Origin: Chrysomallon squamiferum
Taxonomy: Eukaryota > Animalia > Mollusca
Direction of reading: 5' to 3'
Assembly: GCA_012295275.1 (NCBI GenBank)
Contig: CM022672.1
Span: forward strand, 29,822,001 to 29,886,000
Length of the DNA stretch: 64,000 bases
Both the position numbers and the translations under genes were made by a program. Shown in pieces: positions 15,433 to 57,564 of the stretch (its first letter is position 1; every line of letters starts with the position of its first letter). The notes beneath the pieces were generated by a model. That model made no database searches, had not been told where the DNA came from, and saw only the letters and a list, made by a program, of their open reading frames with translations.

Positions 15433-16875
15433 AATGTTAAAACGTTCGAACCTTATAAAATTTCGTGTCGGATACTCAGTTTACTAACATATTTTTTTCT
15501 TTCCTTTTTGCTGAGAAATGAAGCAATTTATTTATCCTGTAACTAAAGAAGCTCATAAAGTGTCATCTTATGCCATTTCCTTTTAATAATAATAATTAAT
15601 AATAATAATAATAATAATAAGAAGAAGAAGAAGAAGAAGAAGAAATAATGATTGCAAAATAAATTCGTTCCGATTAAAAATTAAAAATAAACAATAAGAA
15701 TAACATTCCGTTATTCCGGTCTTGTATGTTTGTATCTGTTGTGTTCGTTTTTAATGTTTTAATATTCAGTGTTTATGTGGTGCTCTGTACCATTTTTCAT
15801 ATTAACAGCTCGAGATTCATTTGTATGTGTGTATGTCTGTGTGTGTACGTGCGTGCGTGCGTGCGTGTGTGTGTGTGTTGTCAAACATTCAGAGAGATCT
15901 GTTTCAAAAGAAGTATTTGCACATATTTTACTAGCTGAATTATTCCTTTTAAGTTTTATTGTTATGGATGCATGTTTTTTAGTACTAGTTTTGTTAAATT
16001 GTATTACTGAGATGATGTCTTATACCAGATATCTACTTACCTCGTTTGTTTGTGCACCCACTAGTTATTATTTTGTTGTCTATTTAGTTCTGGAAATATT
16101 TCTCATAACTGACCTTCGACTCTACTTGTCTTCCTTTATCTCACTGGTGCTGCATCTTTCACCTAGTCAGATGTAGTTTGCAACGTTCAGCCAATCAGAA
16201 CGGCAAATGACGGTGCCTAAGTTCGTGTAAATATTAAAACAAGATATACAGGGATAGGAAAGGGGCCCGAAATCGCATGACAGTAAACTGATTTCTCATT
16301 GAAAACAAAGAATATTACACATGACACATTTTTTATTTATTTATGATAGATACTGTCACTGTTGCAGTATGTTATGGAGATGCAGCGTCGAACTTATAAA
16401 ATAGGAAATATCAGAAGAAATAAATTTTATAAAAGTTTGGTGTTTCATTCTAATCACTTTATTACAACTAACTAAAATCTTGTTCCATCAGTTATATACT
16501 TCATTTGGCTTTTCCCGTGTACCTATGTAGATATTAAATCTCGATGGTTCAAAAACAATAGAAGATGTTAATGACTGTTTAAAGGTTGTTTTTGAAGAAA
16601 TATATTACAAACTTACCTGTGCAAAGGTAAATATAGGTACACTTAAAGATTAGTTTCATAAATTGATTTTTAGTTAACACTGCACACATATCAAATGCGC
16701 ACATTCAAAAATCTACCTAATCAACAAAAACCGTTATCTGCGTATTTTGTGTTTTAATAAATATATATATTGTTATATTGTACAAGTTTATTTCGTTGGA
16801 ACAAAATATATAATAATCAACACAAAAAGAAATAAGTAACTATTTTTGATTTGAATTTTTTTCCCAAAAGCTGGG

Positions 16876-17105
16876 AGTGGGCCATTCCCGGAGGTACTGC
16901 AATACCGGGTCAACCCGTGCTAAAATAAATAAAACAACTGAAATAAAAAGGCGCGTGGCAGCAAGGCAGCAAAAGCCCCCTGACACTTCGCCTAGTTCCA
17001 AAAATCAGTTTAATATCGATGTCCCCCAATGGAGGACGTATCAGATATTAAGCTGATAAGAACAGATACTACACTTTGATCTTAGCCAAAAGGCCGAGAA
17101 GCGAT
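16876..17105 (-). pseudogene. RNU2: U2 snRNA copy 1, stem-loop III disrupted by ~41 extra nt
   Basis: 5' half identical to the other copies; 16920-16975 replaced by A-rich inserted or scrambled sequence. Confidence 0.8.
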
Positions 17106-17149
17106 AATATACACTTGTTAAGCAGATCATATAAATATTTAAGAAAGCA

Positions 17150-17164
17150 ATTTCACACTGGTGT
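17150..17164 (-). promoter_or_regulatory. PSE-like element of U2 (-59..-45), repeated in each unit
   Basis: ACACCAGTGTGAAAT, 12/15 identical to the U1 element at the same offset from +1. Confidence 0.75.
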
Positions 17165-17777
17165 GTCATTTTGAAATTATTTAGAAAGATAAGTAACTGT
17201 ATAACGAAGATAGGAATTTATGACAGAATTTAAAGGTTTAATAATACTTGTTTCTGGTGCCTTGCACTGTGTCATTTGAATAATATTTAAACAGAACTGT
17301 GCGTGAACTTAACATAAATGTGCACGTGTTGCATTCTTCCGATCTATGAAACGTAGCTCTGACGATTTTTCGTTCGCTGCATGCTAAAAATAACTTCTAT
17401 ACTTAGAAAAGCTTAGCTTCTCAGTCAGTGCAGCGTGCGTTCGAGCCCTTGCTGTTCATTTACAACCCAAGCGAAGAATTAGCTACAAGGACAAAATTAA
17501 GACAGTTTTTATTAACGTCTCGCGAAAGTCACAGTGAAAGAAATACATAATGGGCCATTGTGTTATAACTCGTTCGTTAGCCTCTGGTCAGTCACTGACA
17601 AACGTAAAAGTTTGAGCCCGATTATTAATTTTGTCGATTACCAGGTGCAACTGAGAGAAACACGCAACGCGTTTTAACGACCATTAAATAGCAATTTAAG
17701 AGAGTCACCCAACACTTGTTTCAAATGACTCGCCGAAAACATTTGGAATTTATTCTAGGAGATTGTTCATAAACGTG

Positions 17778-17792
17778 ATACCTGTGCGAAAT
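17778..17792 (+). promoter_or_regulatory. PSE-like element of U1 (-59..-45), repeated in each unit
   Basis: ATACCTGTGCGAAAT, same offset as the U2 element; followed by TATAAAAG at 17807 (-30). Confidence 0.75.
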
Positions 17793-17836
17793 AACGAAGG
17801 CGTTTCTATAAAAGAGGTTTTCACCCAAGTTCAAGC

Positions 17837-18001
17837 ATACTTACCTGGTACGGGAGGTCACCATGATCCGCAAGGTGGTCCCCCCAGGGCGAGGCCTTTC
17901 CATTGCACTCCGGTTGGGCTGACCCGTGCGATCGCCCCAAATGCGGGCGACTCGAGTACGTAATTTTTTAGTGTGGGGGTCTGCGTTCGCGCTAACCCCT
18001 G
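17837..18001 (+). ncRNA. RNU1: U1 snRNA copy 1
   Basis: ATACTTACCTGG 5' end, GGTCAC stem-loop I loop, U1A site ATTGCACTCC, Sm site AATTTTTTAG, stem-loop IV GCGTTCGCGC; 165 nt; two substitutions relative to copies 2-4. Confidence 0.97.
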
Positions 18002-19552
18002 AAAATTCAAAACAAAAAAACAGTTTCTTAAAAACCTCTCAAAATGCCCGTACTGCAAAGCGTCTTTCTCTCATTCACTTAGATGTTAACAATGCGATAC
18101 TGCTGCAACATGAAATTTTAGCTGCCTTCAGTTTAGAGAATTGCTCTAAGTAACTTCGTCAACGATAAATGGAAAAGAAAGCCTACGTTTTGCCTTTACC
18201 ATCAACTCTGTAGATTACCTTGTATCGTTCGTGTAAACTCGCCCAACTTCCAGACTGATAGCTTTAACTGTGACGTCAAATCTCATGTCAACAGTTTAAT
18301 TTTTGTCGACTTTCCGCAATTAGATAGCAAACGTTTCTGGAATGACCGACAATACACGTGTATCACGGGCCTCAGAGAAAACACTGTCAACCATAAAACC
18401 TGAAAACGAAATCAAACTGAATAAATTGTTGCTTTAACGGATATGATCTTCTGTGCGTTTTGTACACATTACGGAGTTAGCTTCCGCTTTATTTCATTCG
18501 TTTATTTCTACTTTGGAGACACTTCACACTTAACGACCGAGTACCGTTCCTGCGACTGAATCGTTTAGCGACATTTCAAGCATGCTGTACTGGAGTGAGT
18601 TTGTGGAAACCATTTTTTAGATATCGTTTCAATCTCACCTCTGCACCAGCAATAACCTTTTCAGTGGATTATAAAATGTTCATGATAGTAGTGTGCTGCA
18701 TACTGCAATATACCGGAATAGATGAAATCTTTACTTAGGTTTGGATTCTGTTTATTGCAGGTAATCGTTTCAAATCTGTTACCAATAGTTTATTCTATTT
18801 GTTTTGTTTTGTTTTGTTTTCTGTAATTTGCAACAGTCGTGGCCGTAGAAGACAGTTTTCGAATTCGAATGAAAGAGGAAACGAAAATACACGAGAGAAA
18901 CATTAAGCTCACGCAAGCATAAGAGAATAGCTCCGGAAGAAAATTTCCCTGAAGGATTCCACCGAGTTTATTCCAGCGACACTCTTTACAGTGACCGTCG
19001 ATTTTTTGTACAATTTTCAGCAGCCAAAATTACCATTATCGTAGACAACTGCACTACGCTTCGGCTCGCAGCCCGTTGTTAGTGCAGTAAACGAAATGAT
19101 ATGTTTCTTTCTCTATTTTACGATTGTTTTGTGTTATCTTCTGTTTCAAACTATTTGAAACAGTAGACAAAACTATTGATTAAAGTCAGTTACAGAAATT
19201 TGTCGTTCGCTGTGCGTAACCTGCCTTTACGTCAAACGGAGTAACTGTACTGAGTACTCGTTACGTCACCCATTATCCTGTTAATTACTGACGAGTCAGT
19301 TCGATAAGGTCATTTGCGCTGTTTCACTGTTAATTTATTTTATTTCGTTTTATTTCATTTCATTGTTTGGTTATTTTGTTACTTTTTTAGATGATGTTAC
19401 CATTTAATATATTATACTGACACAGTTAGTGAGGTTGTGTAATACAAATCGACATTTGCTAAAATAAATAAAACAGGACTGAAATAAATAAATAAATCAA
19501 CACAAAAAGAAATAAGTAACTATTTTTGATTTGAATTTTTTCCCAAAAAGGG

Positions 19553-19741
19553 AGTGGGCCATTCCCGGAGGTACTGCAATACCGGGTCAACCCGTGGCAA
19601 AGGCGGAGCAAGCCCCTGACACTTCGCCTAGTTCCAAAAATCAGTTTAATATCGATGTCCCCCAATGGAGGACGTATCAGATATTAAGCTGATAAGAACA
19701 GATACTACACTTTGATCTTAGCCAAAAGGCCGAGAAGCGAT
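19553..19741 (-). ncRNA. RNU2: U2 snRNA copy 2
   Basis: Minus strand ATCGCTTCTCGGCCTTTTGGCTAAGATCAAAGTGTAGTATCTGTTC, Sm site GATTTTTGG, loop IV ATTGCAGTAC; ~189 nt. Confidence 0.98.
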
Positions 19742-20472
19742 AATATACACTTGTTAAGCAGATCATATAAATATTTAAGAAAGCAATTTCACACTGGTGT
19801 GTCATTTTGAAATTATTTAGAAAGATAAGTAACTGTATAACGAAGATAGGAATTTATGACAGAATTTAAAGGTTTAATAATACTTGTTTCTGGTGCCTTG
19901 CACTGTGTCATTTGAATAATATTTAAACAGAACTGTGCGTGAACTTAACATAAATGTGCACGTGTTGCATTCTTCCGATCTATGAAACGTAGCTCTGACG
20001 ATTTTTCGTTCGCTGCATGCTAAAAATAACTTCTATACTTAGAAAAGCTTAGCTTCTCAGTCAGTGCAGCGTGCGTTCGAGCCCTTGCTGTTCATTTACA
20101 ACCCAAGCGAAGAATTAGCTACAAGGACAAAATTAAGACAGTTTTTATTAACGTCTCGCGAAAGTCACAGTGAAAGAAATACATAATGGGCCATTGTGTT
20201 ATAACTCGTTCGTTAGCCTCTGGTCAGTCACTGACAAACGTAAAAGTTTGAGCCCGATTATTAATTTTGTCGATTACCAGGTGCAACTGAGAGAAACACG
20301 CAACGCGTTTTAACGACCATTAAATAGCAATTTAAGAGAGTCACCCAACACTTGTTTCAAATGACTCGCCGAAAACATTTGGAATTTATTCTAGGAGATT
20401 GTTCATAAACGTGATACCTGTGCGAAATAACGAAGGCGTTTCTATAAAAGAGGTTTTCACCCAAGTTCAAGC

Positions 20473-20636
20473 ATACTTACCTGGTACGGGAGGTCACCAT
20501 GATCCGCAAGGTGGTCCTCCCAGGGCGAGGCCTTTCCATTGCACTCCGGTCGGGCTGACCCGTGCGATCGCCCCAAATGCGGGCGACTCGAGTACGTAAT
20601 TTTTTAGTGTGGGGTCTGCGTTCGCGCTAACCCCTG
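20473..20636 (+). ncRNA. RNU1: U1 snRNA copy 2
   Basis: As copy 1; one G fewer in stem-loop IV (possible homopolymer error). Confidence 0.97.
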
Positions 20637-22187
20637 AAAATTCAAAACAAAAAAACAGTTTCTTAAAAACCTCTCAAAATGCCCGTACTGCAAAGCGTCT
20701 TTCTCTCATTCACTTAGATGTTAACAATGCGATACTGCTGCAACATGAAATTTTAGCTGCCTTCAGTTTAGAGAATTGCTCTAAGTAACTTCGACAACGA
20801 TAAATGGAAAAGAAAGCCTACGTTTTGCCTTTACCATCAACTCTGTAGATTACCTTGTATCGTTCGTGTAAACTCGCCCAACTTCCAGACTGATAGCTTT
20901 AACTGTGACGTCAAATCTCATGTCAACAGTTTAATTTTTTTGTCGACTTTCCGCAATTAGATAGCAAACGTTTCTGGAATGACCGACAATACACGTGTAT
21001 CACGGGCCTCAGAGAAAACACTGTCAACCATAAAACCTGAAAACGAAATCAAACTGAATAAATTGTTGCTTTAACGGATATGATCTTCTGTGCGTTTTGT
21101 ACACATTACGGAGTTAGCTTCCGCTTTATTTCATTCGTTTATTTCTACTTTGGAGACACTTCACACTTAACGACCGAGTACCGTTCCTGCGACTGAATCG
21201 TTTAGCGACATTTCAAGCATGCTGTACTGGAGTGAGTTTGTGGAAACCATTTTTTAGATATCGTTTCAATCTCACCTCTGCACCAGCAATAACCTTTTCA
21301 GTGGATTATAAAATGTTCATGATAGTAGTGTGCTGCATACTGCAATATACCGGAATAGATGAAATCTTTACTTAGGTTTGGATTCTGTTTATTGCAGGTA
21401 ATCGTTTCAAATCTGTTACCAATAGTTTATTCTATTTGTTTTGTTTTGTTTTGTTTTCTGTAATTTGCAACAGTCGTGGCCGTAGAAGACAGTTTTCGAA
21501 TTCGAATGAAAGAGGAAACAAAAATACACGAGAGAAACATTAAGCTCACGCAAGCATAAGAGAATAGCTCCGGAAGAAAATTTCCCTGAAGGATTCCACC
21601 GAGTTTATTCCAGCGACACTCTTTACAGTGACCGTCGATTTTTTGTACAATTTTCAGCAGCCAAAATTACCATTATCGTAGACAACTGCACTACGCTTCG
21701 GCTCGCAGCCCGTTGTTAGTGCAGTAAACGAAATGATATGTTTCTTTCTCTATTTTACGATTGTTTTGTGTTATCTTCTGTTTCAAACTATTTGAAACAG
21801 TAGACAAAACTATTGATTAAAGTCAGTTACAGAAATTTGTCGTTCGCTGTGCGTAACCTGCCTTTACGTCAAACGGAGTAACTGTACTGAGTACTCGTTA
21901 CGTCACCCATTATCCTGTTAATTACTGACGAGTCAGTTCGATAAGGTCATTTGCGCTGTTTCACTGTTAATTTATTTTATTTCGTTTTATTTCATTTCAT
22001 TGTTTGGTTATTTTGTTTTTTTTTTTTAGATGATGTTACCATTTAATATATTACACTGACACAGTTAGTGAGGTTGTGTAATACAAATCGACATTTGCTA
22101 AAATAAATAAAACAGGACTGAAATAAATAAATCAACACAAAAAGAAATAAGTAACTATTTTTGATTTGAATTTTTTCCCAAAAAGGG

Positions 22188-22376
22188 AGTGGGCCATTCC
22201 CGGAGGTACTGCAATACCGGGTCAACCCGTGGCAAAGGCGGAGCAAGCCCCTGACACTTCGCCTAGTTCCAAAAATCAGTTTAATATCGATGTCCCCCAA
22301 TGGAGGACGTATCAGATATTAAGCTGATAAGAACAGATACTACACTTTGATCTTAGCCAAAAGGCCGAGAAGCGAT
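22188..22376 (-). ncRNA. RNU2: U2 snRNA copy 3
   Basis: Identical to copy 2 by eye. Confidence 0.98.
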
Positions 22377-23108
22377 AATATACACTTGTTAAGCAGATCA
22401 TATAAATATTTAAGAAAGCAATTTCACACTGGTGTGTCATTTTGAAATTATTTAGAAAGATAAGTAACTGTATAACGAAGATAGGAATTTATGACAGAAT
22501 TTAAAGGTTTAATAATACTTGTTTCTGGTGCCTTGCACTTGTGTCATTTGAATAATATTTAAACAGAACTGTGCGTGAACTTAACATAAATGTGCACGTG
22601 TTGCATTCTTCCGATCTATGAAACGTAGCTCTGACGATTTTTCGTTCGCTGCATGCTAAAAATAACTTCTATACTTAGAAAAGCTTAGCTTCTCAGTCAG
22701 TGCAGCGTGCGTTCGAGCCCTTGCTGTTCATTTACAACCCAAGCGAAGAATTAGCTACAAGGACAAAATTAAGACAGTTTTTATTAACGTCTCGCGAAAG
22801 TCACAGTGAAAGAAATACATAATGGGCCATTGTGTTATAACTCGTTCGTTAGCCTCTGGTCAGTCACTGACAAACGTAAAAGTTTGAGCCCGATTATTAA
22901 TTTTGTCGATTACCAGGTGCAACTGAGAGAAACACGCAACGCGTTTTAACGACCATTAAATAGCAATTTAAGAGAGTCACCCAACACTTGTTTCAAATGA
23001 CTCGCCGAAAACATTTGGAATTTATTCTAGGAGATTGTTCATAAACGTGATACCTGTGCGAAATAACGAAGGCGTTTCTATAAAAGAGGTTTTCACCCAA
23101 GTTCAAGC

Positions 23109-23273
23109 ATACTTACCTGGTACGGGAGGTCACCATGATCCGCAAGGTGGTCCTCCCAGGGCGAGGCCTTTCCATTGCACTCCGGTCGGGCTGACCCGTG
23201 CGATCGCCCCAAATGCGGGCGACTCGAGTACGTAATTTTTTAGTGTGGGGGTCTGCGTTCGCGCTAACCCCTG
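23109..23273 (+). ncRNA. RNU1: U1 snRNA copy 3
   Basis: Full U1 motif set, 165 nt. Confidence 0.98.
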
Positions 23274-24832
23274 AAAATTCAAAACAAAAAAACAGTTTCT
23301 TAAAACCTCTCAAAATGCCCGTACTGCAAAGCGTCTTTCTCTCATTCACTTAGATGTTAACAATGCGATACTGCTGCAACATGAAATTTTAGCTGCCTTC
23401 AGTTTAGAGAATTGCTCTAAGTAACTTCGACAACGATAAATGGAAAAGAAAGCCTACGTTTTGCCTTTACCATCAACTCTGTAGATTACCTTGTATCGTT
23501 CGTGTAAACTCGCCCAACTTCCAGACTGATAGCTTTAACTGTGACGTCAAATCAAATCTCATGTCAACAGTTTAATTTTTGTCGACTTTCCGCAATTAGA
23601 TAGCAAACGTTTCTGGAATGACCGACAATACACGTGTATCACGGGCCTCAGAGAAAACACTGTCAACCATAAAACCTGAAAACGAAATCAAACTGAATAA
23701 ATTGTTGCTTTAACGGATATGATCTTCTGTGCGTTTTGTACACATTACGGAGTTAGCTTCCGCTTTATTTCATTCGTTTATTTCTACTTTGGAGACACTT
23801 CACACTTAACGACCGAGTACCGTTCCTGCGACTGAATCGTTTAGCGACATTTCAAGCATGCTGTACTGGAGTGAGTTTGTGGAAACCATTTTTTAGATAT
23901 CGTTTCAATCTCACCTCTGCACCAGCAATAACCTTTTCAGTGGATTATAAAATGTTCATGATAGTAGTGTGCTGCATACTGCAATATACCGGAATAGATG
24001 AAATCTTTACTTAGGTTTGGATTCTGTTTATTGCAGGTAATCGTTTCAAATCTGTTACCAATAGTTTATTCTATTTGTTTTGTTTTGTTTTGTTTTCTGT
24101 AATTTGCAACAGTCGTGGCCGTAGAAGACAGTTTTCGAATTCGAATGAAAGAGGAAACGAAAATACACGAGAGAAACATTAAGCTCACGCAAGCATAAGA
24201 GAATAGCTCCGGAAGAAAATTTCCCTGAAGGATTCCACCGAGTTTATTCCAGCGACACTCTTTACAGTGACCGTCGATTTTTTTTTTTTGTACAATTTTC
24301 AGCAGCCAAAATTACCATTATCGTAGACAACTGCACTACGCTTCGGCTCGCAGCCCGTTGTTAGTGCAGTAAACGAAATGATATGTTTCTTTCTCTATTT
24401 TACGATTGTTTTGTGTTATCTTCTGTTTCAAACTATTTGAAACAGTAGACAAAACTATTGATTAAAGTCAGTTACAGAAATTTGTCGTTCGCTGTGCGTA
24501 ACCTGCCTTTACGTCAAACGGAGTAACTGTACTGAGTACTCGTTACGTCACCCATTATTATCCTGTTAATTACTGACGAGTCAGTTCGATAAGGTCATTT
24601 GCGCTGTTTCACTGTTAATTTATTTTATTTCGTTTTATTTCATTTCATTGTTTGGTTATTTTGTTACTTTTTTAGATGATGTTACCATTTAATATATTAC
24701 ACTGACACAGTTAGTGAGGTTGTGTAATACAAATCGACATTTGCTAAAATAAATAAAACAGGACTGAAATAAATAAATCAACACAAAAGAAATAAGTAAC
24801 TATTTTTGATTTGAATTTTTTCCCAAAAAGGG

Positions 24833-25021
24833 AGTGGGCCATTCCCGGAGGTACTGCAATACCGGGTCAACCCGTGGCAAAGGCGGAGCAAGCCCCTGAC
24901 ACTTCGCCTAGTTCCAAAAATCAGTTTAATATCGATGTCCCCCAATGGAGGACGTATCAGATATTAAGCTGATAAGAACAGATACTACACTTTGATCTTA
25001 GCCAAAAGGCCGAGAAGCGAT
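24833..25021 (-). ncRNA. RNU2: U2 snRNA copy 4
   Basis: Identical to copy 2 by eye. Confidence 0.98.
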
Positions 25022-25752
25022 AATATACACTTGTTAAGCAGATCATATAAATATTTAAGAAAGCAATTTCACACTGGTGTGTCATTTTGAAATTATTTAG
25101 AAAGATAAGTAACTGTATAACGAAGATAGGAATTTATGACAGAATTTAAAGGTTTAATAATACTTGTTTCTGGTGCCTTGCACTGTGTCATTTGAATAAT
25201 ATTTAAACAGAACTGTGCGTGAACTTAACATAAATGTGCACGTGTTGCATTCTTCCGATCTATGAAACGTAGCTCTGACGATTTTTCGTTCGCTGCATGC
25301 TAAAAATAACTTCTATACTTAGAAAAGCTTAGCTTCTCAGTCAGTGCAGCGTGCGTTCGAGCCCTTGCTGTTCATTTACAACCCAAGCGAAGAATTAGCT
25401 ACAAGGACAAAATTAAGACAGTTTTTATTAACGTCTCGCGAAAGTCACAGTGAAAGAAATACATAATGGGCCATTGTGTTATAACTCGTTCGTTAGCCTC
25501 TGGTCAGTCACTGACAAACGTAAAAGTTTGAGCCCGATTATTAATTTTGTCGATTACCAGGTGCAACTGAGAGAAACACGCAACGCGTTTTAACGACCAT
25601 TAAATAGCAATTTAAGAGAGTCACCCAACACTTGTTTCAAATGACTCGCCGAAAACATTTGGAATTTATTCTAGGAGATTGTTCATAAACGTGATACCTG
25701 TGCGAAATAACGAAGGCGTTTCTATAAAAGAGGTTTTCACCCAAGTTCAAGC

Positions 25753-25917
25753 ATACTTACCTGGTACGGGAGGTCACCATGATCCGCAAGGTGGTCCTCC
25801 CAGGGCGAGGCCTTTCCATTGCACTCCGGTCGGGCTGACCCGTGCGATCGCCCCAAATGCGGGCGACTCGAGTACGTAATTTTTTAGTGTGGGGGTCTGC
25901 GTTCGCGCTAACCCCTG
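25753..25917 (+). ncRNA. RNU1: U1 snRNA copy 4
   Basis: Full U1 motif set, 165 nt. Confidence 0.98.
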
Positions 25918-27464
25918 AAAATTCAAAACAAAAAAACAGTTTCTTAAAAACCTCTCAAAATGCCCGTACTGCAAAGCGTCTTTCTCTCATTCACTTAGAT
26001 GTTAACAATGCGATACTGCTGCAACATGAAATTTTAGCTGCCTTCAGTTTAGAGAATGCTCTCTAAGTAACTTCGACAACGATAAATGGAAAAGAAAGCC
26101 TACGTTTTGCCTTTACCATCAACTCTGTAGATTACCTTGTATCGTTCGTGTAAACTCGCCCAACTTCCAGACTGATAGCTTTAACTGTGACGTCAAATCT
26201 CATGTCAACAGTTTAATTTTTGTCGACTTTCCGCAATTAGATAGCAAACGTTTCTGGAATGACCGACAATACACGTGTATCACGGGCCTCAGAGAAAACA
26301 CTGTCAACCATAAAACCTGAAAACGAAATCAAACTGAATAAATTGTTGCTTTAACGGATATGATCTTCTGTGCGTTTTGTACACATTACGGAGTTAGCTT
26401 CCGCTTTATTTCATTCGTTTATTTCTACTTTGGAGACACTTCACACTTAACGACCGAGTACCGTTCCTGCGACTGAATCGTTTAGCGACATTTCAAGCAT
26501 GCTGTACTGGAGTGAGTTTGTGGAAACCATTTTTTAGATATCGTTTCAATCTCACCTCTGCACCAGCAATAACCTTTTCAGTGGATTATAAAATGTTCAT
26601 GATAGTAGTGTGCTGCATACTGCAATATACCGGAATAGATGAAATCTTTACTTAGGTTTGGATTCTGTTTATTGCAGGTAATCGTTTCAAATCTGTTACC
26701 AATAGTTTATTCTATTTGTTTTGTTTTGTTTTGTTTTCTGTAATTTGCAACAGTCGTGGCCGTAGAAGACAGTTTTCGAATTCGAATGAAAGAGGAAACG
26801 AAAATACACGAGAGAAACATTAAGCTCACGCAAGCATAAGAGAATAGCTCCGGAAGAAAATTTCCCTGAAGGATTCCACCGAGTTTATTCCAGCGACACT
26901 CTTTACAGTGACCGTCGATTTTTTGTACAATTTTCAGCAGCCAAAATTACCATTATCGTAGACAACTGCACTACGCTTCGGCTCGCAGCCCGTTGTTAGT
27001 GCAGTAAACGAAATGATATGTTTCTTTCTCTATTTTACGATTGTTTTGTGTTATCTTCTGTTTCAAACTATTTGAAACAGTAGACAAAACTATTGATTAA
27101 AGTCAGTTACAGAAATTTGTCGTTCGCTGTGCGTAACCTGCCTTTACGTCAAACGGAGTAACTGTACTGAGTACTCGTTACGTCACCCATTATCCTGTTA
27201 ATTACTGATGAGTCAGTTCGATAGGTCATTTGCGCTGTTTCACTGTTAATTTATTTTATTTCGTTTTATTTCATTTCATTGTTTGGTTATTTTGTTACTT
27301 TTTTAGATGATGTTACCATTTAATATATTACACTGACACAGTTAGTGAGGTTGTGTAATACAAATCGACATTTGCTAAAATAAATAAAACAGGACTGAAA
27401 TAAATAAATCAACACAAAAAGAAATAAGTAACTATTTTTGATTTGAATTTTTTCCCAAAAAGGG

Positions 27465-27653
27465 AGTGGGCCATTCCCGGAGGTACTGCAATACCGGGTC
27501 AACCCGTGGCAAAGGCGGAGCAAGCCCCTGACACTTCGCCTAGTTCCAAAAATCAGTTTAATATCGATGTCCCCCAATGGAGGACGTATCAGATATTAAG
27601 CTGATAAGAACAGATACTACACTTTGATCTTAGCCAAAAGGCCGAGAAGCGAT
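27465..27653 (-). ncRNA. RNU2: U2 snRNA copy 5 (upstream flank kept only to about -120)
   Basis: Gene body identical to copy 2; array homology breaks at ~27775. Confidence 0.95.
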
Positions 27654-27775
27654 AATATACACTTGTTAAGCAGATCATATAAATATTTAAGAAAGCAATT
27701 TCACACTGGTGTGTCATTTTGAAATTATTTAGAAAGATAAGTAACTGTGTAATGAAGATTGGAATTTATGACAAA

Positions 27776-28096
27776 ATTGTACCGAGTACTCGTTACCCAC
27801 TATGCTGTTAATTACTGATGAGTGAGTTCGATAAGGTCATTTGCGCTGTTTCATTGTTATTTTATTTTATTTCATTTTATTTCATTTCATTTTATTTTAT
27901 TTTTTTTGTTTTTTTTTTGTTATTATGTTCATTTTTTTGATGATGTTTCCATTTAATACAGAACATTTAATATATATTATACTGATACAGTTAGTGAGGT
28001 TGTGTAATACAAATCGCTATTTGAAAAAAGAAATAAAACAGGCCTGAAATAAATAAATTAATTAAAAAAAAAAGTAACTATTTTTTATTTGAATTT
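27776..28096. repeat. Diverged copy of the U2 3'-flank spacer
   Basis: Similar to 19245-19538 (gagtactcgtta...aagtaactatttt...tttgaattt). Confidence 0.85.
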
Positions 28097-28097
28097 G

Positions 28098-28860
28098 AAA
28101 ACACCAGTGTTTTAAGAATTTCTCTCTTCTGTTGGGCTGTTCTAATGCGGCAAAGTATTCAATTTCAGCTCCTGAATATACTAAGTGTTTAAAAAGTATC
28201 ATTTCTTTCCCTGTCTTATCTCCCTCTGATAATTTTCGTGTAGTCCAAATTACCAGAGAAAAGTCCCTAAATTCGATGCATCGTTTCCAGGTTTGTGTTT
28301 AATTCGAAAAATCATTCTATATGGATTTAGTTTGAACTTGGTGCCAAAAAGTGTTTTATAAAAGGGTTCAATACGTTTAATAAATGATTTAGTTTTGCAC
28401 CTGTGAAAAAAAAGCATGCAAGACCGAGTCCATCGCGACGCACACTAGGCATTGTGGAGTTGGCTCAATCTTCCAGTCATAAAGATGTTTTCTAACTGCA
28501 ACAACATGTCTAATCATTTTATAAATTAAATCATAATTATTATTTTCAATTAGGCCGGAGTTTAATTTCTGCCAGACATTTTTCCAATTTATGCTTTCAG
28601 TGAAAATGGTTTCCCATCTGATCTTAAAGGATGCATCTTTGTAAGTTCGTAAGAACAAAACCGTGTATACGTCTTTCGTTGTCGCAAGTGTCACGTCTTT
28701 TTTTGTATCAGCGACGGTGATACAGAAGATGGCGTCTAAGTCTCCGTCAAAAGGTTTATCAGTCATTAATGTCCTTAATACCGGTCGTGGAAAGTTGTCT
28801 TGTATGTCTTTTAGTTCACAATAAAAAAGTTTTCTTGCCACGAAGGTTTCAATGTACATT
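28098..28860 (-). mobile_element. L1/Tx1-type non-LTR retrotransposon ORF2 C-terminal fragment (zf-RVT / CCHC region), truncated at both ends
   Basis: INWKNVWQKL...YKMIRHVVAVRKHLYDWKIEPTPQCLVC...DSVLHAFF, frameshift, then CKTK...IWTTR...FLKHWC. Confidence 0.85.
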
Positions 28861-28940
28861 ATAGATTTTTGTATTCATATTATGTAAGCATAGCAATAAT
28901 AATAATCCATAATTGGTAACAGATAGCAAACATTTTTTTT

Positions 28941-29056
28941 AGTATTTTCTCTGAGGCCAGTGATACACGTGTATTGTCTGTCATTCCAGAAACGTTTGCT
29001 ATCTAATTACGGAATGTCGATACACATTAAACCCTTGACATTAGATTTCACCTCAG
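28941..29056 (-). repeat. Inverted, diverged fragment of the U1 downstream spacer
   Basis: Reverse complement of ~18270-18385 (ttctctgaggcc-gtgatacacgtgtattgtc-gtcattccagaaacgtttgctatctaatt). Confidence 0.85.
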
Positions 29057-35027: not shown

Positions 35028-35059
<32 letters not shown>

Positions 35060-35664: not shown

Positions 35665-35814
<150 letters not shown>

Positions 35815-36334: not shown

Positions 36335-36423
<89 letters not shown>

Positions 36424-36497
36424 ATTTAAACTATTTATGGTTGTCTCTACAATGACCGTATATTTCAGAAATGAAACTGTTTTAATATTCGTTACAG

Positions 36498-43228
<6,731 letters not shown>

Positions 43229-45765: not shown

Positions 45766-45844
45766 ACCTTCGTCGCAAAGGACAACTCTGAAAATTAAAA
45801 GCTATTAAATGGCGACATCGTCCAGAAAAGTAAAATAATAACAA

Positions 45845-46672
45845 AACATGAAATAAAATGAAATAAACTAAAACAAAACTAAAATAAAACAGATTAGAAA
45901 CGATTACCTGCAATAAACAGAATCCAAACCTAAGTAAAGTGTATCAGAATAGATTTGATCTATTCCGGTATATTGCAATAAGAAACACATTACTATCATG
46001 AACATTTTATAATCCACTGAAAAGATTATTACTGGTGCAGAGGTGAGATTGAAACAATAGCTAAAAATGGTTTCCACAAACTAGCTCCAGTACAGCATGC
46101 TCGAAATATCGCTAAACGATTCAGTCGTAGGAACGGTACTCGGTCGTTAAGTGTGAAGTGTCTCCAAAGAAGAAATAAACGAATGAAATAAAGCGGAAGC
46201 TAACTCCGTAATGTGTACAAAACGCACAGAAGATCATATCCGTTAAAGCAACAATTTATTCAGTTTGATTTCGTTTTCTGGTTTCATGGTTGACAGTGTC
46301 TTCTCTGAGGCCCGTGATACACGTGTATTGTCGGTCATTCAAGAAACGTTTGCTATCTAATTGCGGAAAGTCGACAAAAATTAAACTGTTGACATGAGAT
46401 TTGACGTCACACTTAAAGGTATCAATCTGGAAGTTGGGCGAGTTTACACGAACAATACAAGGTAATCTACAGAGTTGATGATAAAGGCAAAACGTAAGCT
46501 TTTTTTTTCCATTTATCGTTGACAGTTAGAGCAATTCTCTAAACTGAAAGCAGCTAAAATTTCATGTTACAGCAGTATTGCATTGTTAATATGTAAGTGA
46601 ATGAGAGAAAGACGTTTTGCAGTACGGGCATTTTGAGAGGTTTTTAAGAAACTGTTTTTTGTTTTGAATTTT
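45845..46672 (-). repeat. Inverted orphan copy of the U1 downstream spacer
   Basis: Reverse complement of ~18002-18810, roughly 90-95% identical by eye. Confidence 0.95.
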
Positions 46673-46718
46673 CAGGGGTTAGCGCGAACGCAGACCACCG
46701 CACTAAAAAATTACATAC
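46673..46718 (-). pseudogene. RNU1: 3' fragment of U1 snRNA (nt ~120-165: Sm site and stem-loop IV)
   Basis: Minus strand GTATGTAATTTTTTAGTGCGGTGGTCTGCGTTCGCGCTAACCCCTG versus array GTACGTAATTTTTTAGTGTGGGGGTCTGCGTTCGCGCTAACCCCTG. Confidence 0.93.
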
Positions 46719-47314
46719 AAAAAGTAACCTGGTCTGCAGGCCTGGCCTAAAGAGCTGCAGATTGGGATGTCCAGGTCTAATTTTACTCATTGATATGTAA
46801 TGTCGAAAGCGTCATTACACGAGCCAATGACCGCTTCTACACACCAGTCTTTTAAGAACTTTTCTCTACTGTTAGGCCGTTCTAATGTTGCAATCTATTC
46901 ACTTTCAACCCTTGAATATACTAAGTGTTTAAAAAGTGTCATTTCTTTTCATGGCTTATCTCTTTAGTAATTTTCGTGTAGTCCTAATTACCCTTAGAGC
47001 TTTACACCAGAGAAAAATCCCTAAATTCGATCCATGGTTACCAGGTTTGTGTTTAATTCCAAAAATCATTCTATATGGATTTAGTTTGAACTTGGTGACG
47101 AAACGATTGTTAAAAATGGGTTCAATAAGTTTAATAATTGATTTAGTTTTGCACCAGTGAAAAAAGGCATGCAAGACCGAGTCACTGCGCACTGTGGAGT
47201 GGGCTGAATCTTCCACTCATAAAGATATTTTCTAACTGCAACAACATGTCTAATCATTTTATAAATTAAATCATAGTCATTATTTTCAATTAAACCAGAG
47301 TTTAATGACTGCCA
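46719..47314 (-). mobile_element. L1/Tx1-type retrotransposon 3' end (ORF2 C-terminus, stop at 46787-46789, ~68 nt 3' UTR) fused into U1
   Basis: DSVLHAFFHWCKTK...FLWCKALRVIRTTRK...EKFLKDWCVEAVIGSCNDAFDITYQ*; homologous to 28098-28575. Confidence 0.87.
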
Positions 47315-47654
47315 ATAAATCCGCCATTTTACCAGTTTACAACTGACATCATGAGTTCACTTTCATGTTACAGTTTAAATGCGGTCATGACATTTACGTA
47401 AGTCAAAGCATCACGAACGCCGGAAATATATCGATCTCTTCTTGTTCGAACATCGTGTGACAATGAATCACAAAGTTTTTCTACTCGATAATCTGTGTCA
47501 AACCCGTACATTCCATGACGTCAGTATTTTCAAAAGACAGAAACCCTAATTCATCAAGAAACCGGTAATGACTGCTGTGTAAACGTGACTTCCAAGTCAA
47601 GAAAGATTTTACGTGGTAAATGGCTACTACTACTACTACAACTACTACTACCAA

Positions 47655-47704
<50 letters not shown>

Positions 47705-48049
47705 TATGATGATTATTATTACTCATATTATTATTGCTATTACAACTATTATTAATAGTATCACTGTCATTATTACTACTACTATTTTTAATATTACTAT
47801 TGCTATAACAGCTATTAGTGGCGTTGGTGTTGTTACTGATTCTTACTTGTATGACCTGTACCCAGGTCATTTTGAAAGAGAAATTTGACTTGCAGGGTCA
47901 CTGCGATTTTACCTCAGGTAAAACCTGATGGATAACAGAACAGAAAAGAAAGCGTGGCCTTACCCAACCCGTAAAACAACGTGTAGCATTCCGGCAGTGA
48001 CTTTTAACCAATCAAATCTGTCCGCAGTGAAGTGTGTCGTTAGTAACTT

Positions 48050-48640
48050 TTCGACGAATACAGATGCCTTCGAAGTTGTCAGAATCGTCACCTTGATCAG
48101 CAATCACGAGGTAATTTCGGAAAATGTGAATGTTGTCCCACAGTTCTTCTGCTTGGACATGACTCGCGAGTATTCAGACCACAGCAACACGTTGACGACG
48201 CTGATTCCAAGGAAGTTTTGTAGGATTCTGGCTGCAAAGGAGTCTGATAGTTTTATGCTAATGAATAACACCACGACCTGCTGCCGGAATAAAGGAAGGA
48301 CAGTCGGGCTGATTCTGTTAACAGTGACCACTAAAGACTTCACCTTTCCATACATTCCTCTCACATTTTGACACACCCTCCACCACAAGGACGACCTCCT
48401 GAACCCAAAGAGTCGTCCCACTCGTTTTCTTCTTCTAAGGTAAACACGACATCTTCCATCAACTCTGAATAAACACAACCGGCTTTTATCAGTGAACAAT
48501 ACCGTCTGCTAGATGTTACGTCTGCAAACACCGGTCCTCAAGTTGCAGTGTCACTCTTGGTCTCTCTGTCCTTGTCTGTCTGATGTCGTATTTCTCTTTA
48601 AGTTTACAGCACAGTACGGGAACAAACAAAGGTTCTTTGG
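48050..48640 (-). mobile_element. Degenerate Tc1-like transposase remnant (unit B)
   Basis: FTDKSRLCLFRVDGRCRVYLRR...AARILQNFLG..VVNVLLWSEYS. Confidence 0.8.
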
Positions 48641-49382
48641 ATAAAAGCAAAGATAGCCCCGAACAGTGCAGACCCACGGCTTGTTTGACGTTGTTACAGT
48701 TGTCATTCGTGGCAGTCTTGTGGTGATTTTGTTGTCATTGTAGATGTGTGACGTGTTATGCCGTCTATGTCGTATTCTATACATTAGCTGCATGTGTCAT
48801 TACTGCTCTTCATAAAGCACGTGCTTTTCATTTTTTCGCGCTTTCTCATTTTAACCGGCTTAACGTAGATCATTATTCCTCAAACACTGTTGTTTCGTTT
48901 CCCTTTGTGTTTTGCACTATTAAATTTCAACTAGCTTTACAGTTTTTCTAAAATTTCATTTATGCAGTCGTAAAATATATTTTGGTCATGTTCTGCGTCT
49001 AGTGTTTTTGTTCTCACATCGAAAGTATCTATTTATTAAAATATTTTAAAAACATCATTGAATTTCCATAAACCTTTATTCTGACTTTAGTCGAACTGCA
49101 AATTTCTATAATACAGCATTATTGAACTATTTGAACGTACATGTAAGCTGTGAATGGATGAACATCTACAAAGCAGAAACTGGCTGACACTGCTCTCTGA
49201 CAGAGAGCAACCCAGAACAACTTGTACAAGCCGAGCGTAGGTGAAACATCGATGTAATGTATCACATAATTTGCATATAAAATATTTATTGCTGCAAATC
49301 AATAAGGAAGAACTATTCCCTGATTTTGTAGCAAATAATTACAACACCATATATACTCATCAAAATTTATCAAAGTGACTAT

Positions 49383-49513
<131 letters not shown>

Positions 49514-50600
49514 ATATTTTTATAATGTTTAATATTTTATCCAGAATTCAAGTCTTTGTAACCCCCATTATAGTTCGTATAAGATTATAATATTTTATCC
49601 ATAATTTAAAACTTTATAATTCCAAGCGAATCCCCAAGTTTCTGAGGATCCTCTTTTGTCTTAATCTCATTAGTTAACATATTAACACTAACACTCTCAC
49701 GCTCAGACAGGCTCGAATTTTGAAATCTAAGCCTGTGATAAATCAGCTTCGACTTCCAGAATTGTCAGTCATATTTGAAATAATTAAACTGTATCTTTGC
49801 TGATATGAACAAATAGTGTATATATAATCTGAATACATGTCTTTGCTCCGCCATTTTATTCTTGCGTGACGTCATTGTGTTTAGGCCGAACTGATTCATT
49901 CTAAAGTTTCTTATAATGTCTTGGGGGGCGGGAAATGTTTTTATCAGTTCTCTACATACACAGTGATGTCATGAATACAATTTTTGAGGTACAAAAGTCA
50001 TATTCTGATTCTGCTACTAATAATATTAGTACATTACGGTCATGATATATTTTCAAAGAAACAACAGCAACAGGAATCGATTATTATTGTTGTCTCAAGC
50101 GTCTTGTGTTAATCTCTATAAAACCTGTTCTTCATCAGTAAATTATGCTTACCAGAAGAAAAGAAATTAAAATGTTTATCTTGTCGTTATTTTAAAGAGA
50201 CTGTTATCGTGAAAATAAAAATGTTAGAAAGAAAAAAAAAAGAAATAAAGAAAAAGTTAACGTCATTTTATACGTTGTGGTTTTTAACCATTCACGTCTA
50301 GAGCGCATGTGCACAGCATTTACACAATTGCTATTGTACACCATCAGTAATTATTTTATTATTATTATTATTATTATTATTACTGGTGTTATTGTTGTTG
50401 TTGTTGCTATTGCTGTTATTTTTATTATTTGTTATTTATTTATTTTTTTAGTAGTAGTAGTAGTAGTAGTAGTAGTTAGTAGTAATAGTTTTAGGACTAG
50501 TAGTAGTAGTAGAAGTAATAACTAACAAGGTAAGTTGTAATAGTATTGGCTGTGATAGTAGTAGTTTTAGAATTAATACATTATTTATTTCATTATTACC

Positions 50601-50657
<57 letters not shown>

Positions 50658-51267
50658 TTTATTTTTTTTTTTTATTTTTTATTTATTTATTTATTTTATT
50701 AGCTAATTTATTTTAATTTTAATTTAATTTTATTTTTGACGTCAAATACTAACGCTAATTTACGAAACAATTATTAGCACAAACCCAGATCTGCATAGAG
50801 TATTTATACCAACAATAATATAACTGGTAAACAGGATTACAAAAAATACGTTAATGTCTCTATAACTGTACATCATATTAAAAATTACATATTAACTTCC
50901 GTGTAAAATTATAATAGGAAAATAACTGATGCTTCACAAAACTGAAGTAAATAAAAAATATATATTTTATTATTGCTATTATATCTTGATTAATTAACAC
51001 CGTGACAATATCGAATATCGATTCACGTCTTTTCATTGCTGTTGAAGATCATTAATTTTGTATTTTCATCGCATTAATCTTTTGTGTCAGTTTAAAAATA
51101 CTAAAAGTGAAAGAGCATGTTCTATTCATTATGAAATAATTTTCCCCAGAAGAGTTATCAGGCTGTTTGTCTTATCATCTACTGGACTCAGGAGAAGGCA
51201 AAAGCTTATACGTGCTTCTAAGCGTGTACTGGATATGTGCTATTACCTACGTATTATACGGTACGTT

Positions 51268-51382
<115 letters not shown>

Positions 51383-51667
51383 TTTGTTTAATTATTTATT
51401 ATTTATTCGTTCATTTATTCATTTATTGGTTCATGTATTCATTTATTTGTTATTATTTATTCAAGGACTTGTGTATTATTATTGTTGTTTTTTGTTGTTT
51501 TATTTGATTATCTCTGGTTCATTTTTCACTCATTCTCTTTTTCTTTTTCTGTTTGTTTGTTTCTGTTTATTTTGTTATTGTTTTTTCAATATAGTTTTAT
51601 ATATATAATTTTACTTCTATATTAAAATATCTTTCTTCCTTTATTTTTTTTCATTTTTCGATTTATG

Positions 51668-51724
<57 letters not shown>

Positions 51725-51879
51725 GTCTGTCTGTCTGTCTGTCTATCTATTTATTTATCTATCTGTCTTTTCTTGTTTATCGTTAATTTTTTTTTTTTTC
51801 TGCACTTAAAATTAATTTAGCTTATTTTTATTTACTTTATTAGAACATTTCTTCCAATTTTGTTTTAAATTCTATTCTA

Positions 51880-52001
<122 letters not shown>

Positions 52002-52098
52002 GTCTCTCTCTCTCTCTCAGCCCACTTTAAAATATTTATGGTTGTGTCTACATTGACCGTATATTTCAGAAATGAAACTGTTTTAATATTCGTTACAG

Positions 52099-52935
52099 AT
52101 GATCAGATACATAAGTCTTGGATTTATGTTCGTCTTGTTTCAAGGTAAGTAATAAATTAATTTTAAGTTAATAATAAAATTTGCAGATTTTGTGTGGTAA
52201 ATCGCAGATATATAGATAGATAGATAGATAGATAGACAGATTAGGTTGAGGAATAACTGATTGCGGTTAAATTAAATTTAATCATTACATAGATGAAAAC
52301 TTAATCTTACTTGATAACAAGATGGAATTCAATCAATGATGTGTTCTCCGTTGTTATTTACCACTTCTTCCCAACGGTCAATAAGTTTTTCGATGCCTCT
52401 GCAATAAATTTTAATCAATTATGAACCCAGTGGCGTATTCCTCAACCCAGTAAACAAACATTTACGTTTAAATCTTGAGTTGTGAACAAATCGATTTTTA
52501 CATACTTACAAGTAATTTCATTTTTATCCTTATTTTATTTGATTTTAATTTTTATTTTATTTTATTTATTTATTGATTATGTTTATTTGTTGTTTTACTT
52601 ATTATTTATTTATTCATTTATCTTTATTTATGTTTTTTTCTATTATTTATTTATTTATTTTTTTTTTTTTATTTTTTTATTAATTAATTTCTTCATTTAT
52701 TTTTTGTTTCTTCAATTCTTCAAATTCTTGTCTTTTTAAAGTGTATGTTACTATGTTGTTACCTTAAAAAAAAATGTAGTGTAAATATAATATGTCATTT
52801 CCGAGTGACTGTTCTGTTACTTTCATGTTAATGTTACATGTAGTTCGGTTAATAATATTACAGCGATTTAACACATTTTCTACAGTTAATCTATTTCTAC
52901 GGGTGTAAGTCTGTGCGCGAATTTGTAGGTGTATC

Positions 52936-52996
<61 letters not shown>

Positions 52997-54114
52997 CCCC
53001 ACATGATGTCCTACTAAATAAATATACATATAACTCTTTGATTTATTAAAAATGCATCACAAAATTATCGCTTTAGTTCAGACACTGCCAAGAGAAGGAA
53101 TTAAAAGCATATTTAATATTTCAGTGGCTATTAATTTGCCACTTTCAACTCATAGATGTAGCAGATTGCGTGTATAGCTTTTACTGGACTAGCTTGTGAA
53201 TATGTGTGTGTGTCTCTGTGTTTGTGTGTGTGTGTGTGCGCGCGCGCGTGTATGTGTGCTTGTCGAAAGAGAGACACCCAGTGATTAAATTCAAAACCTT
53301 TTAGAGGAGAGCTTGTGAAAATATGTGTTTGTGCGTGTATGTGTGCATGTTTCAATTCAGTTTTTCCTGTATTTGTTTTTAACGTGTGTGTTTGTTTGTT
53401 TTTCTCAGTCATCACCGGGACACCGTCAACGCCCGTAGTTTTGTATCTGCACACAGAAACACGAAGCTGGAACGAGGCTAATTACCAATGTGAGAAAGAC
53501 GAGCAGCGATTGGTTACTGTAAAGGACAGCGCTAAAAACCAGACTCTTTACGACATTGTTACTGAGTGGAAAACCGATCATGTTATGCAAGAAGATATAA
53601 TTAATATTTAGTTTTTTTAATCTTCTGTCTTTTAAATTAGAGCTGTTGTGTTGTTGCCATTCTCATATCAGTATGTACCGTGTAAAAATCGTGAAGCATT
53701 AGATCTACTGTAACAGAGTGTGTGTGGGTGGGTGTGAGTGTGTTTGTGTGTGTTAATGTATTGTACAATGACTCCAATTAATTTGATACGTAAGTTATTT
53801 TAAAGTGCAGATACAGATATAATGGCTTGTCTCACAAATGTTTCACAAAAAATTATTTAAAATTTAATAGATATATTCAAAACCAAAGAATACATACTGT
53901 GCAGTTTATCTCAAATTTAAAAAAGCACTTATCAGTGAGAAATTTGAGTTTTAGTTTGTAGTATGACAGTTTGGAAGTTCGAACACCGCTAGGAACTCTC
54001 ACTAACTATTTGTTTTGGGCTGCGCTCTTCTATTGATTTATCATTGGTATTCTATACACCTTTCTGATGATGCTATTCAAGCATACTACTCACACACACA
54101 TACAATAAAAAACA

Positions 54115-54161
<47 letters not shown>

Positions 54162-54190
54162 TAATAATAATAAAAATAATAATAATTATA

Positions 54191-54222
<32 letters not shown>

Positions 54223-54289
54223 CATCATCATTATCATTATAATTATTATTGTTCTTGTTATTATCAATTACTTTTTTGTTTTTTTTTTG

Positions 54290-54325
<36 letters not shown>

Positions 54326-55328
54326 GTATTATACAGCTAATTGAGAAAGCCAGTTAACAGCGTCATTGAACCTGGTTTCCTCTTTGATATCAATATTCAG
54401 TGAAAATCACAAACTGGTGGAAACGCACATACCATAGCCATGGTCAATTAAGTTGAATATTCTTTGTAATGTAAATATAACTAAAATTGTTTTCCTATTT
54501 ACAAATGAAAATATACTGCTGGTAGCTAGCTGTTCTTTCTCACAACAGCAAGAAAAAATATTAGTAATAATAACAATAACAACAACAACAGCAGCAGCAG
54601 CAGCAAAAAGAACAACATCAACAGTAAATAATAATAATAATGATAGTAAAAACAAGAAGAAGAACAACAAGAAGAAATATCAGAATAATAATAAATAATA
54701 ATTTAAAATAATAATAATACAAACAAAATACTTAAATTTACTGCCAGTAATTTACACCAACATTTCCAATGTGCCTGGTGTTTCTTTAACAACGTCATTT
54801 TATTGGTGACGTCAAATCATTGAACATTTATTAATACGTCAGCTTTGTAATAATAATAAAAATAATAATAATAACTAAATGAAATAGAAATAGAAATAAA
54901 ATTACGTTCACAGGATTTCTATTAAGCGTTTTAATATATTCGTCTTTGTATCGAAAATATTCGCAAAGCCGATTCACTTTTCGGAAACTTCCGTAATCAG
55001 ACAATGACGTCAACAATGCATTGACGTGCACGTCGTAAAATACACAGCGACAGTATTGAAACTTAATGTTCTTGCTTTTGTGAAAAATTATATAGTTTGC
55101 AACAAAGGTGAAATATTTCTTACACACAACAGAATACTGCTATTTCTAAAATCATTGTTTAACATTTTCTTATTTATTGTTTTATTTATTTATTAGTATT
55201 ATTAGTATTACTGTTGTTGTTGTTGTTGTTGTTGTTCTTACTGGTATTAGTGTTTATCATCATCATCATTATTACTATTATTATTATTATTCTTTATATA
55301 TTTATTTATTTATTATTATCATCATCAA

Positions 55329-55368
<40 letters not shown>

Positions 55369-57050: not shown

Positions 57051-57364
57051 GTAAGTTCGATTTTTGTTACAAATGCGTGACTTTTAGCATTAAATTATCA
57101 ATTCTTTTGTAATAATGCACCACTTTATTACTATAACAGTTCGGCATCCTATAGCAAATAACAGCGACCTCTTACATTCAGTTTGTTTATAAAAAAAGTG
57201 TGTTAAATATACATTAACGTTACTAGAAATGCAGTGTTGGTTCTATCTTTCAACACTTGAAAAAAACAAATTCATGTTTCTTTGTAATTTGAATACTATC
57301 ATTCTTTCACACACACACACACACATGCGTACATTACATACATACATGCATGCATACAATACAT

Positions 57365-57564
57365 NNNNNNNNNNNNNNNNNNNNNNNNNNNNNNNNNNNN
57401 NNNNNNNNNNNNNNNNNNNNNNNNNNNNNNNNNNNNNNNNNNNNNNNNNNNNNNNNNNNNNNNNNNNNNNNNNNNNNNNNNNNNNNNNNNNNNNNNNNNN
57501 NNNNNNNNNNNNNNNNNNNNNNNNNNNNNNNNNNNNNNNNNNNNNNNNNNNNNNNNNNNNNNNN
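57365..57564. other. Scaffold gap (200 N)
   Basis: Direct reading. Confidence 1.

What the first reader, a model, noticed from the sequence alone, without database searches (positions are those of the whole stretch)
46673..47314. Candidate U1-snRNA-targeting Tx1/L1 retrotransposon: 3' end fused inside U1 at nt 119/120
Seen: on the minus strand, an L1/Tx1-type ORF2 C-terminus ends at TGA, then a ~68 nt UTR ending ...CCAGGTTACTTTTT joins directly to GTATGTAATTTTTTAG. That is U1 nt 120 onward, in U1 sense orientation, just 5' of the Sm site, followed by ~830 bp of genuine U1 genomic spacer. The spacer shows this is a genomic U1 gene and not a retro-copied U1 RNA. Known: Tx1-clade elements are often sequence-specific for multicopy RNA genes (Keno in U2 snRNA, Mutsu in 5S, Dewa in tRNA arrays). 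Inference: this family may target U1 at a fixed site. Caveats: only one clean junction is visible, the 5' junction and any TSD are lost, and the second fragment at 28.1 kb may descend from the same insertion. I cannot tell whether a U1-specific family is already catalogued.
Basis: partly seen in the sequence, partly recalled or inferred. Interest (0 to 1): 0.85.

Follow-up and report, generated by a model that had tools for sequence, protein, structure and literature searches.

The report
Decayed LINE fused into U1 gene
A broken jumping-gene fragment is joined to the back part of a U1 spliceosomal RNA gene, but the joint is likely a deletion scar and not the element's landing site, although a related element in another animal does sit inside a U1 gene at a different position.

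Summary
A decayed L1/Tx1-type ORF2 end (stop 46787-46789, minus strand), 68 nt of UTR and T5 join U1 nt 120-165 plus about 820 bp of U1 flank. The fixed site at nt 119/120 is not supported. The closest relative with flanks (L002) shares the UTR motif but runs 152 nt further to poly(A), in non-U1 DNA. Two contigs of the same organism continue past the ORF without reaching U1. No 5' junction or target-site duplication was found. Two other samples carry a diverged UTR-like tail joined at U1 nt 114, and an RNA contig a third form at nt 114, so nt 120 is probably secondary. A looser link to snRNA genes holds: the second fragment abuts U2 flank DNA, and the sister clade (98/96 support) holds a full element inside U1 with a 15-bp duplication of nt 19-33. 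Best reading: an insertion in or beside a U1 gene later fused by deletion (0.5). A true nt 113/114 site stays possible (0.25). No printed U1-targeting LINE turned up in five searches; Repbase was not searchable. This scan has reported U1-targeting LINEs on other DNA.

The parts
46787..47314 (-). Decayed ORF2 C-terminal remnant of an L1/Tx1-type LINE (fragment A), two frameshifts, stop TGA at 46789-46787
   Evidence: tblastn of P0001, 59-66% identity; translation; DNA homology to fragment B starts at 47314
46719..46786 (-). 68-nt 3' UTR remnant with a predicted hairpin, ending in T5, no poly(A)
   Evidence: 46778-46725 aligns with the L002 UTR (0 of 2000 random window stretches score as high); fold -20.2 kcal/mol without shuffle control
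46673..46718 (-). U1 snRNA nt 120-165 (Sm site and stem-loop IV), 3 mismatches in 46
45803..46672 (-). U1 downstream genomic flank (to 45855) and, after a deletion, a short piece from the U2 end of the spacer; inverted relative to the array
   Evidence: 5.0% substitutions against the array unit
28101..28874 (-). Fragment B: second decayed ORF2 remnant, 161-aa open stretch with weak zf-RVT hit; lacks the last ~17 codons and the UTR
   Evidence: (E 0.0037, below cut-off); 11.6% substitutions against fragment A
27775..28100 (-). Degenerate copy of the U2 3' flank joined to the 3' break of fragment B, in U2 sense orientation
   Evidence: 77% by BLAST, 10.2% substitutions
28941..29055 (-). Inverted piece of U1 downstream flank just 5' of fragment B
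   Evidence: 87-90% to array units
16872..27653 (.). U1/U2 tandem array: U1 (+) at 17837-18001, 20473-20636, 23109-23273, 25753-25917; U2 (-) at 16872-17105, 19549-19741, 22184-22376, 24829-25021, 27461-27653
   Evidence: Rfam at gathering score; adjacent units differ by 0.1% substitutions

Best explanation
A decayed AP-endonuclease-type LINE fragment is joined to U1 nt 120-165 and its genomic flank, and the joint is likely a deletion breakpoint and not the element's own 3' end. Inferred order: the element inserted by target-primed reverse transcription in or beside a U1 gene of the U1/U2 array, in sense orientation, probably further 5' as its sister lineage does; a deletion removed the last ~150 nt of UTR, the poly(A) and the intervening U1 sequence, giving a T-tract joined to U1 nt 114; this fusion was copied, and the window's copy then lost about 7 more bases (apparent nt 120) and its 5' part. 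Shown: the anatomy, the longer UTR in L002, the nt 114 junctions, the U1 insertion of the sister-clade element. Inferred: the original insertion point, the deletion and the copying.
For: L002 (about 71% nt to fragment A) shares the UTR motif up to window 46725, then runs 152 nt to a 24-nt poly(A). L004 also ends in poly(A) after 483 nt. In one search, X1 record 6 has 221 letters and X7 record 28 has 94 letters beyond the ORF end with no joint to U1 listed, although U1 nt 120-165 and 570 nt of flank were in the stretch laid. No 5' junction near nt 105-135 among 11 loose ends from 105 contigs of 4 runs laid on a U1 gene. Deletions that fuse this kind of element to array DNA are seen elsewhere: fragment B to U2 flank, the X7 joint that skips 204 nt, and ORF2 cut at aa 1151 and joined to U1 upstream flank in L005-L007. 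For an origin in the array: both window fragments touch snRNA-unit DNA in sense orientation, and the family is sister to the clade holding L004 (SH-aLRT/UFBoot 98.2/96; 0.97 among 133 RTs).
Against: The nt 114 tail in X2 and X4 differs from the window's UTR end at 6 of 23 letters, more than one copied fusion predicts (P 0.02 at 10% divergence, 0.12 at 15%). No poly(A) junction in the 5' part of U1 was seen in organism A (0 of 7 loose ends in X2, X4, X6), so an original insertion further 5' is not shown. L002 is a different subfamily in probably another animal, so its UTR need not be that of this subfamily. One search missed the window's own junction, so its blanks are weak.
Confidence: 0.5

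Rival explanations
1. A subfamily really targets U1 at nt 113/114. It would end in a short T-rich tail without poly(A) and might use the U1 3' part (Sm site, stem-loop IV) as its RNA end, priming by annealing to the target so that each new insertion picks up fresh U1 sequence. The window's nt 120 would be a 7-base erosion of that junction.
For: X2 and X4 (two studies) each hold one contig whose loose end before U1 nt 114 matches the window's UTR end at 17 of 23 letters (best hit in the whole window; 3 of 5000 random stretches reach it), with 36 letters on U1 and 1 difference in X2. The UTR parts differ by 26% while the U1 parts differ from the array by 3-7%, as independent insertions would give. 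An RNA-library contig (X7) joins ORF2 to nt 114 through the same T run (30 letters on its shorter side, strand and DNA carry-over unknown).
Against: No poly(A) or 5' junction or duplication; both relatives with intact ends (L002, L004) have long UTRs and poly(A); two organism A contigs continue without U1; only 23 letters carry the divergence estimate; all junction contigs are low-depth singletons, with no sign of a young U1-resident family.
Confidence: 0.25
2. The family has no preference for U1. It targets another repeat or inserts loosely, and rearrangement at the edge of the U1/U2 array, next to a segmentally duplicated host region, brought decayed pieces together with snRNA DNA once.
For: The closest relative with both flanks (L002) has a 153-bp direct duplication in DNA with no U1, U2 or other credible Rfam match, between 90-bp inverted repeats. 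The region 27.7-29.1 kb and 45.8-47.4 kb is a mosaic of inverted and deleted array pieces. Fragments A and B differ by 11.6%, which does not exclude one ancestral insertion.
Against: Sister-clade element inside U1 with a clean duplication; both fragments in sense orientation to snRNA units; three junction forms at nt 114-120.
Confidence: 0.22

Closest known systems
Keno (Tx1 clade, AP-endonuclease LINE specific for U2 snRNA genes; Kojima and Fujiwara 2004, seen only as cited in passages of PMC4494074 and PMC4640811)
   Same: AP endonuclease + RT ORF2 (in intact relatives); association with snRNA genes in sense orientation.
   Different: Junction here is in U1 (nt 114-120) and beside U2 flank, not at the Keno site inside U2; precise poly(A)-to-target junction and duplication are absent; no Keno sequence was available for the tree.
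Element in loci L004-L007
   Same: Sister RT clade (51% RT identity to P0001); inserted in U1, sense orientation; also leaves deleted copies fused to array DNA.
   Different: Site is U1 nt 19-33 (15-bp duplication), 483-nt UTR and poly(A); 38% identity over ORF2. L004-L007 are 97-99% alike and count as one locus.
Dada-U1A/B_DR (passages of PMC3706591)
   Same: A mobile element specific for U1 snRNA genes.
   Different: DNA transposon with a DDE transposase and 6-bp duplication, no RT.
Tx1-Mar and Tx1L (Tx1 families that insert into DNA transposons; section 15 and passages of PMC4494074)
   Same: The closest relative L002 sits between 90-bp inverted repeats, which may be a non-autonomous DNA transposon (inference).
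   Different: The L002 target was not identified; its duplication is 153 bp.

Membership tests
L1/Tx1-type non-LTR retrotransposon | ORF2 with N-terminal AP endonuclease, RT and C-terminal cysteine-rich region | tested here: met
   In intact relatives P0001 and L004 ORF2 (Pfam PF03372, PF00078, PF13966); best solved match human L1 ORF2p, E 4e-86. The window holds only the C-terminal part.
Tx1 clade | RT groups with named Tx1 elements (Tx1L, Keno, Mutsu, Dewa) apart from L1 | not testable with these tools
   No named Tx1 sequence came back from any search; the trees hold unnamed relatives only.
Tx1 clade | ORF1 with a CCHC-type knuckle (feature recalled) | tested here: inconclusive
   No ORF1 in the window. 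L004 ORF1 has one C-x2-C-x3-H-x4-C motif by eye and no Pfam hit.
Keno | Insertion at the conserved site inside U2 snRNA genes | tested here: not met
   No U2 coding sequence next to either fragment or in 10 related loci searched.
   0 of 11 loose ends at nt 120; 2 of 11 at nt 114; one X7 joint at nt 114. Sensitivity is limited.
   L002 UTR continues 152 nt to poly(A); X1 record 6 and X7 record 28 run on without U1.
   Absent in the window and among loose ends, but contigs show presence, not absence.

The most novel reading that the evidence does not exclude
A LINE subfamily inserts at U1 nt 113/114 and has traded its distal UTR and poly(A) for the U1 3' end (Sm site and stem-loop IV), within a wider U1-targeting lineage that has moved its site from nt 19-33 to nt 114.
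Probability: 0.2. Interest if true: 0.75.

Novelty: new member of a known kind. Interest (0 to 1): 0.38.

Why it matters
Printed snRNA-specific elements found here are Keno and Utopia (U2), Dada (U1, U6) and a Tx1 family marked U5 in a figure legend. A LINE lineage in U1 genes would add a target, and a pair of relatives with different sites (U1 nt 19-33, a non-U1 repeat, perhaps nt 114) would be material for asking how AP endonucleases change specificity. The window itself is weak evidence for this: it holds decayed pieces whose junction is probably secondary. The clean case is L004.

Tried and rejected
No whole genome is held for this window, so copies could not be tabulated. C-terminal profile against metagenome contigs: 0 of 595 candidates; viral contigs: 0 of 47. 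The profile search of representatives gave relatives without context and was not used further. U1 and L002-UTR searches of the three assemblies behind L001-L003 gave no further junction. A by-eye likeness of the L002 duplication to U1 stem-loop IV was rejected (Rfam to E 10; nhmmer to E 1). The two X6 loose ends at U1 nt 29 and 32 begin with GATC, one matching U2 upstream DNA; I read them as proximity-ligation artefacts (library not on record). X4 loose ends at nt 27 and 98 are unexplained and not linked to this family. A retro-copied U1 RNA is rejected because 820 bp of genomic flank follow. A 3' transduction out of a U1-resident copy could not be shown: no empty site, poly(A) or duplication around 45800-47314. 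Summed contig depths were not used as copy numbers. L003, L008, L009 are distant or partial and showed no snRNA.

Full report
Observation. The window holds a tandem array of four U1 genes (+) and five U2 genes (-) at 16.9-27.7 kb. At 46718-45855 on the minus strand lies U1 nt 120-165 and its downstream flank, 91% to the array by BLAST and 5.0% diverged by substitutions. Directly 5' of it are 68 nt ending in T5 and a broken reading frame that stops at 46789-46787. A contig from run X4 carries the same junction with 3 differences (30 letters on the U1 side).

What the element is. The 161-aa open stretch of the second fragment (28392-28874) found two relatives among 173 candidates, including P0001, 1268 aa, 64% identical. 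P0001 has AP endonuclease, RT and zf-RVT domains and its best solved match is human L1 ORF2p. Its last residues align with the window's stop, so the window has the true ORF2 end. Assignment to Tx1 and not L1 rests on general likeness and on the behaviour of L004; no named Tx1 sequence was available.

Is the junction the element's 3' end? Host contigs in public assemblies gave flanks. L002 (92% aa in its best segment, about 71% nt to fragment A) shares the UTR motif with window 46778-46725 (0 of 2000 random stretches score as high), then continues 152 nt to a 24-nt poly(A). It is flanked by a perfect 153-bp direct repeat inside 90-bp inverted repeats, with no U1, U2 or credible Rfam match. In the window's own organism, X1 record 6 runs 221 letters and X7 record 28 runs 94 letters past the ORF end with no joint to U1 among the five joints listed. 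So the natural end probably lies beyond 46719.

Other junctions in U1. I laid four runs on one U1 gene (105 contigs, 11 loose ends). None was at nt 120, and none looked like a 5' junction near nt 105-135. Two, in X2 and X4 (studies P1 and P2), lie before nt 114; their loose letters match the window's UTR end at 17 of 23 positions, the best match in the whole window (3 of 5000 random stretches reach it; 13 of 18 and 6 of 5000 without the T run). An RNA-library contig in X7 joins ORF2 at 46923 through a T run to nt 114. The likely older junction is therefore T-tract|nt 114, and nt 120 is an eroded form. The 6 differences in 23 are more than one copied fusion predicts (P 0.02-0.12), which is the main result against my best reading. 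One search did not pick up the window's own junction, so its blanks are weak. In organism B (X10) one contig has an A-rich run joined at about U1 nt 9; its family is unknown.

The sister lineage. Four of six metagenome loci (L004-L007, 38-42% aa, 97-99% alike, so one locus) lie in a U1 array. L004 is a complete two-ORF element with U1 nt 1-33 before it, a 483-nt UTR, poly(A) and a 15-bp duplication of nt 19-33. These were found by protein patterns, not by U1. In RT trees the P0001 family is sister to the clade holding L004: 0.97 among 133 sequences (16 near-identical cluster members left out) and 98.2/96 among 41 (21 chosen from the first tree, 19 random, 1 outgroup). The targets of the other members of both clades are unknown. 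L005-L007 also show ORF2 cut at aa 1151 and fused to U1 upstream flank, the same kind of scar proposed here.

Second fragment. It breaks about 17 codons before the stop and joins a degenerate U2 3' flank about 10 nt after the U2 end, in U2 sense; an inverted piece of U1 flank lies just 5' of it. A and B differ by 11.6%, their flanks by 5.0% and 10.2% from the array, which neither proves nor excludes a common insertion.

Mechanism. Most likely (0.5): target-primed insertion in or beside a U1 gene of the array, then deletion of the distal UTR, poly(A) and intervening U1, then copying and further decay. Rivals: a true site at nt 113/114 with a poly(A)-less end (0.25); no U1 preference and a rearranged array edge (0.22). 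Target-primed reverse transcription is established knowledge for L1-type elements; the order of events is inference.

Literature. Five searches found no LINE specific for U1. I read passages and section 15 of PMC4494074 (Keno in U2; a U5 target in the Fig. [quoted passage not shown] Kojima and Fujiwara 2004 was seen only as cited. Supplements were not read and Repbase/Dfam could not be searched; either may list a U1-targeting Tx1 family. Earlier notes of this scan report U1-associated LINEs in other genomes, one at nt 23/24; none matched these sequences and none exist for this genome.

Verdict. Real feature, decayed, with the claimed site unsupported. New member of a known kind; interest 0.38.

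Noticed in passing
L004:23-6205: Complete two-ORF LINE inside a U1 gene, 15-bp duplication of U1 nt 19-33, poly(A); a tandem copy in L006 rebuilds a short U1 head. A cleaner U1-targeting case than the window.
   Followed up: partly
L002:1958-5149: 5'-truncated close relative with a perfect 153-bp target duplication, inside 90-bp inverted repeats (1492-1581, 5415-5504); target unidentified.
   Followed up: partly
protein clusters of P0001, P0002, P0003: Three and four full-length P0001-cluster members share longest-contig lengths 187276 and 613866, and 4 of 15 listed P0003-cluster members share a contig length with P0001/P0002-cluster members: a hint that subfamilies cluster at shared target loci.
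   Followed up: no
window 16872-17105 (-): U2 copy at the array edge with a 41-nt insertion and altered 3' part.
   Followed up: no
window 25753-25775, run X10: In organism B one contig has an A-rich tail joined at about U1 nt 9; element unknown.
   Followed up: no
window 46719-46728; 27425-27445; L001:3065-3080: The GTTAC-T-run at the junction resembles the U2 3' flank about 25 nt after U2 and a motif in the L001 UTR; T-rich, so possibly chance.
   Followed up: no
window 47313-47364 and 30430-30482: The 5' break of fragment A follows host DNA with CRE-like and YY1-like motifs (motifs recalled), present twice in the window.
   Followed up: no
window 30900-41500, 47357-57400, 57565-64000: Three-fold segmental duplication (80-93%) with exons that look like C-type lectin and apple domains by eye; not scanned.
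   Followed up: no
window 5985-11091; 2446-2748; 48104-48508: 59-bp satellite; a retroelement integrase-like remnant; a Tc1-like transposase remnant (the last two by eye).
   Followed up: no
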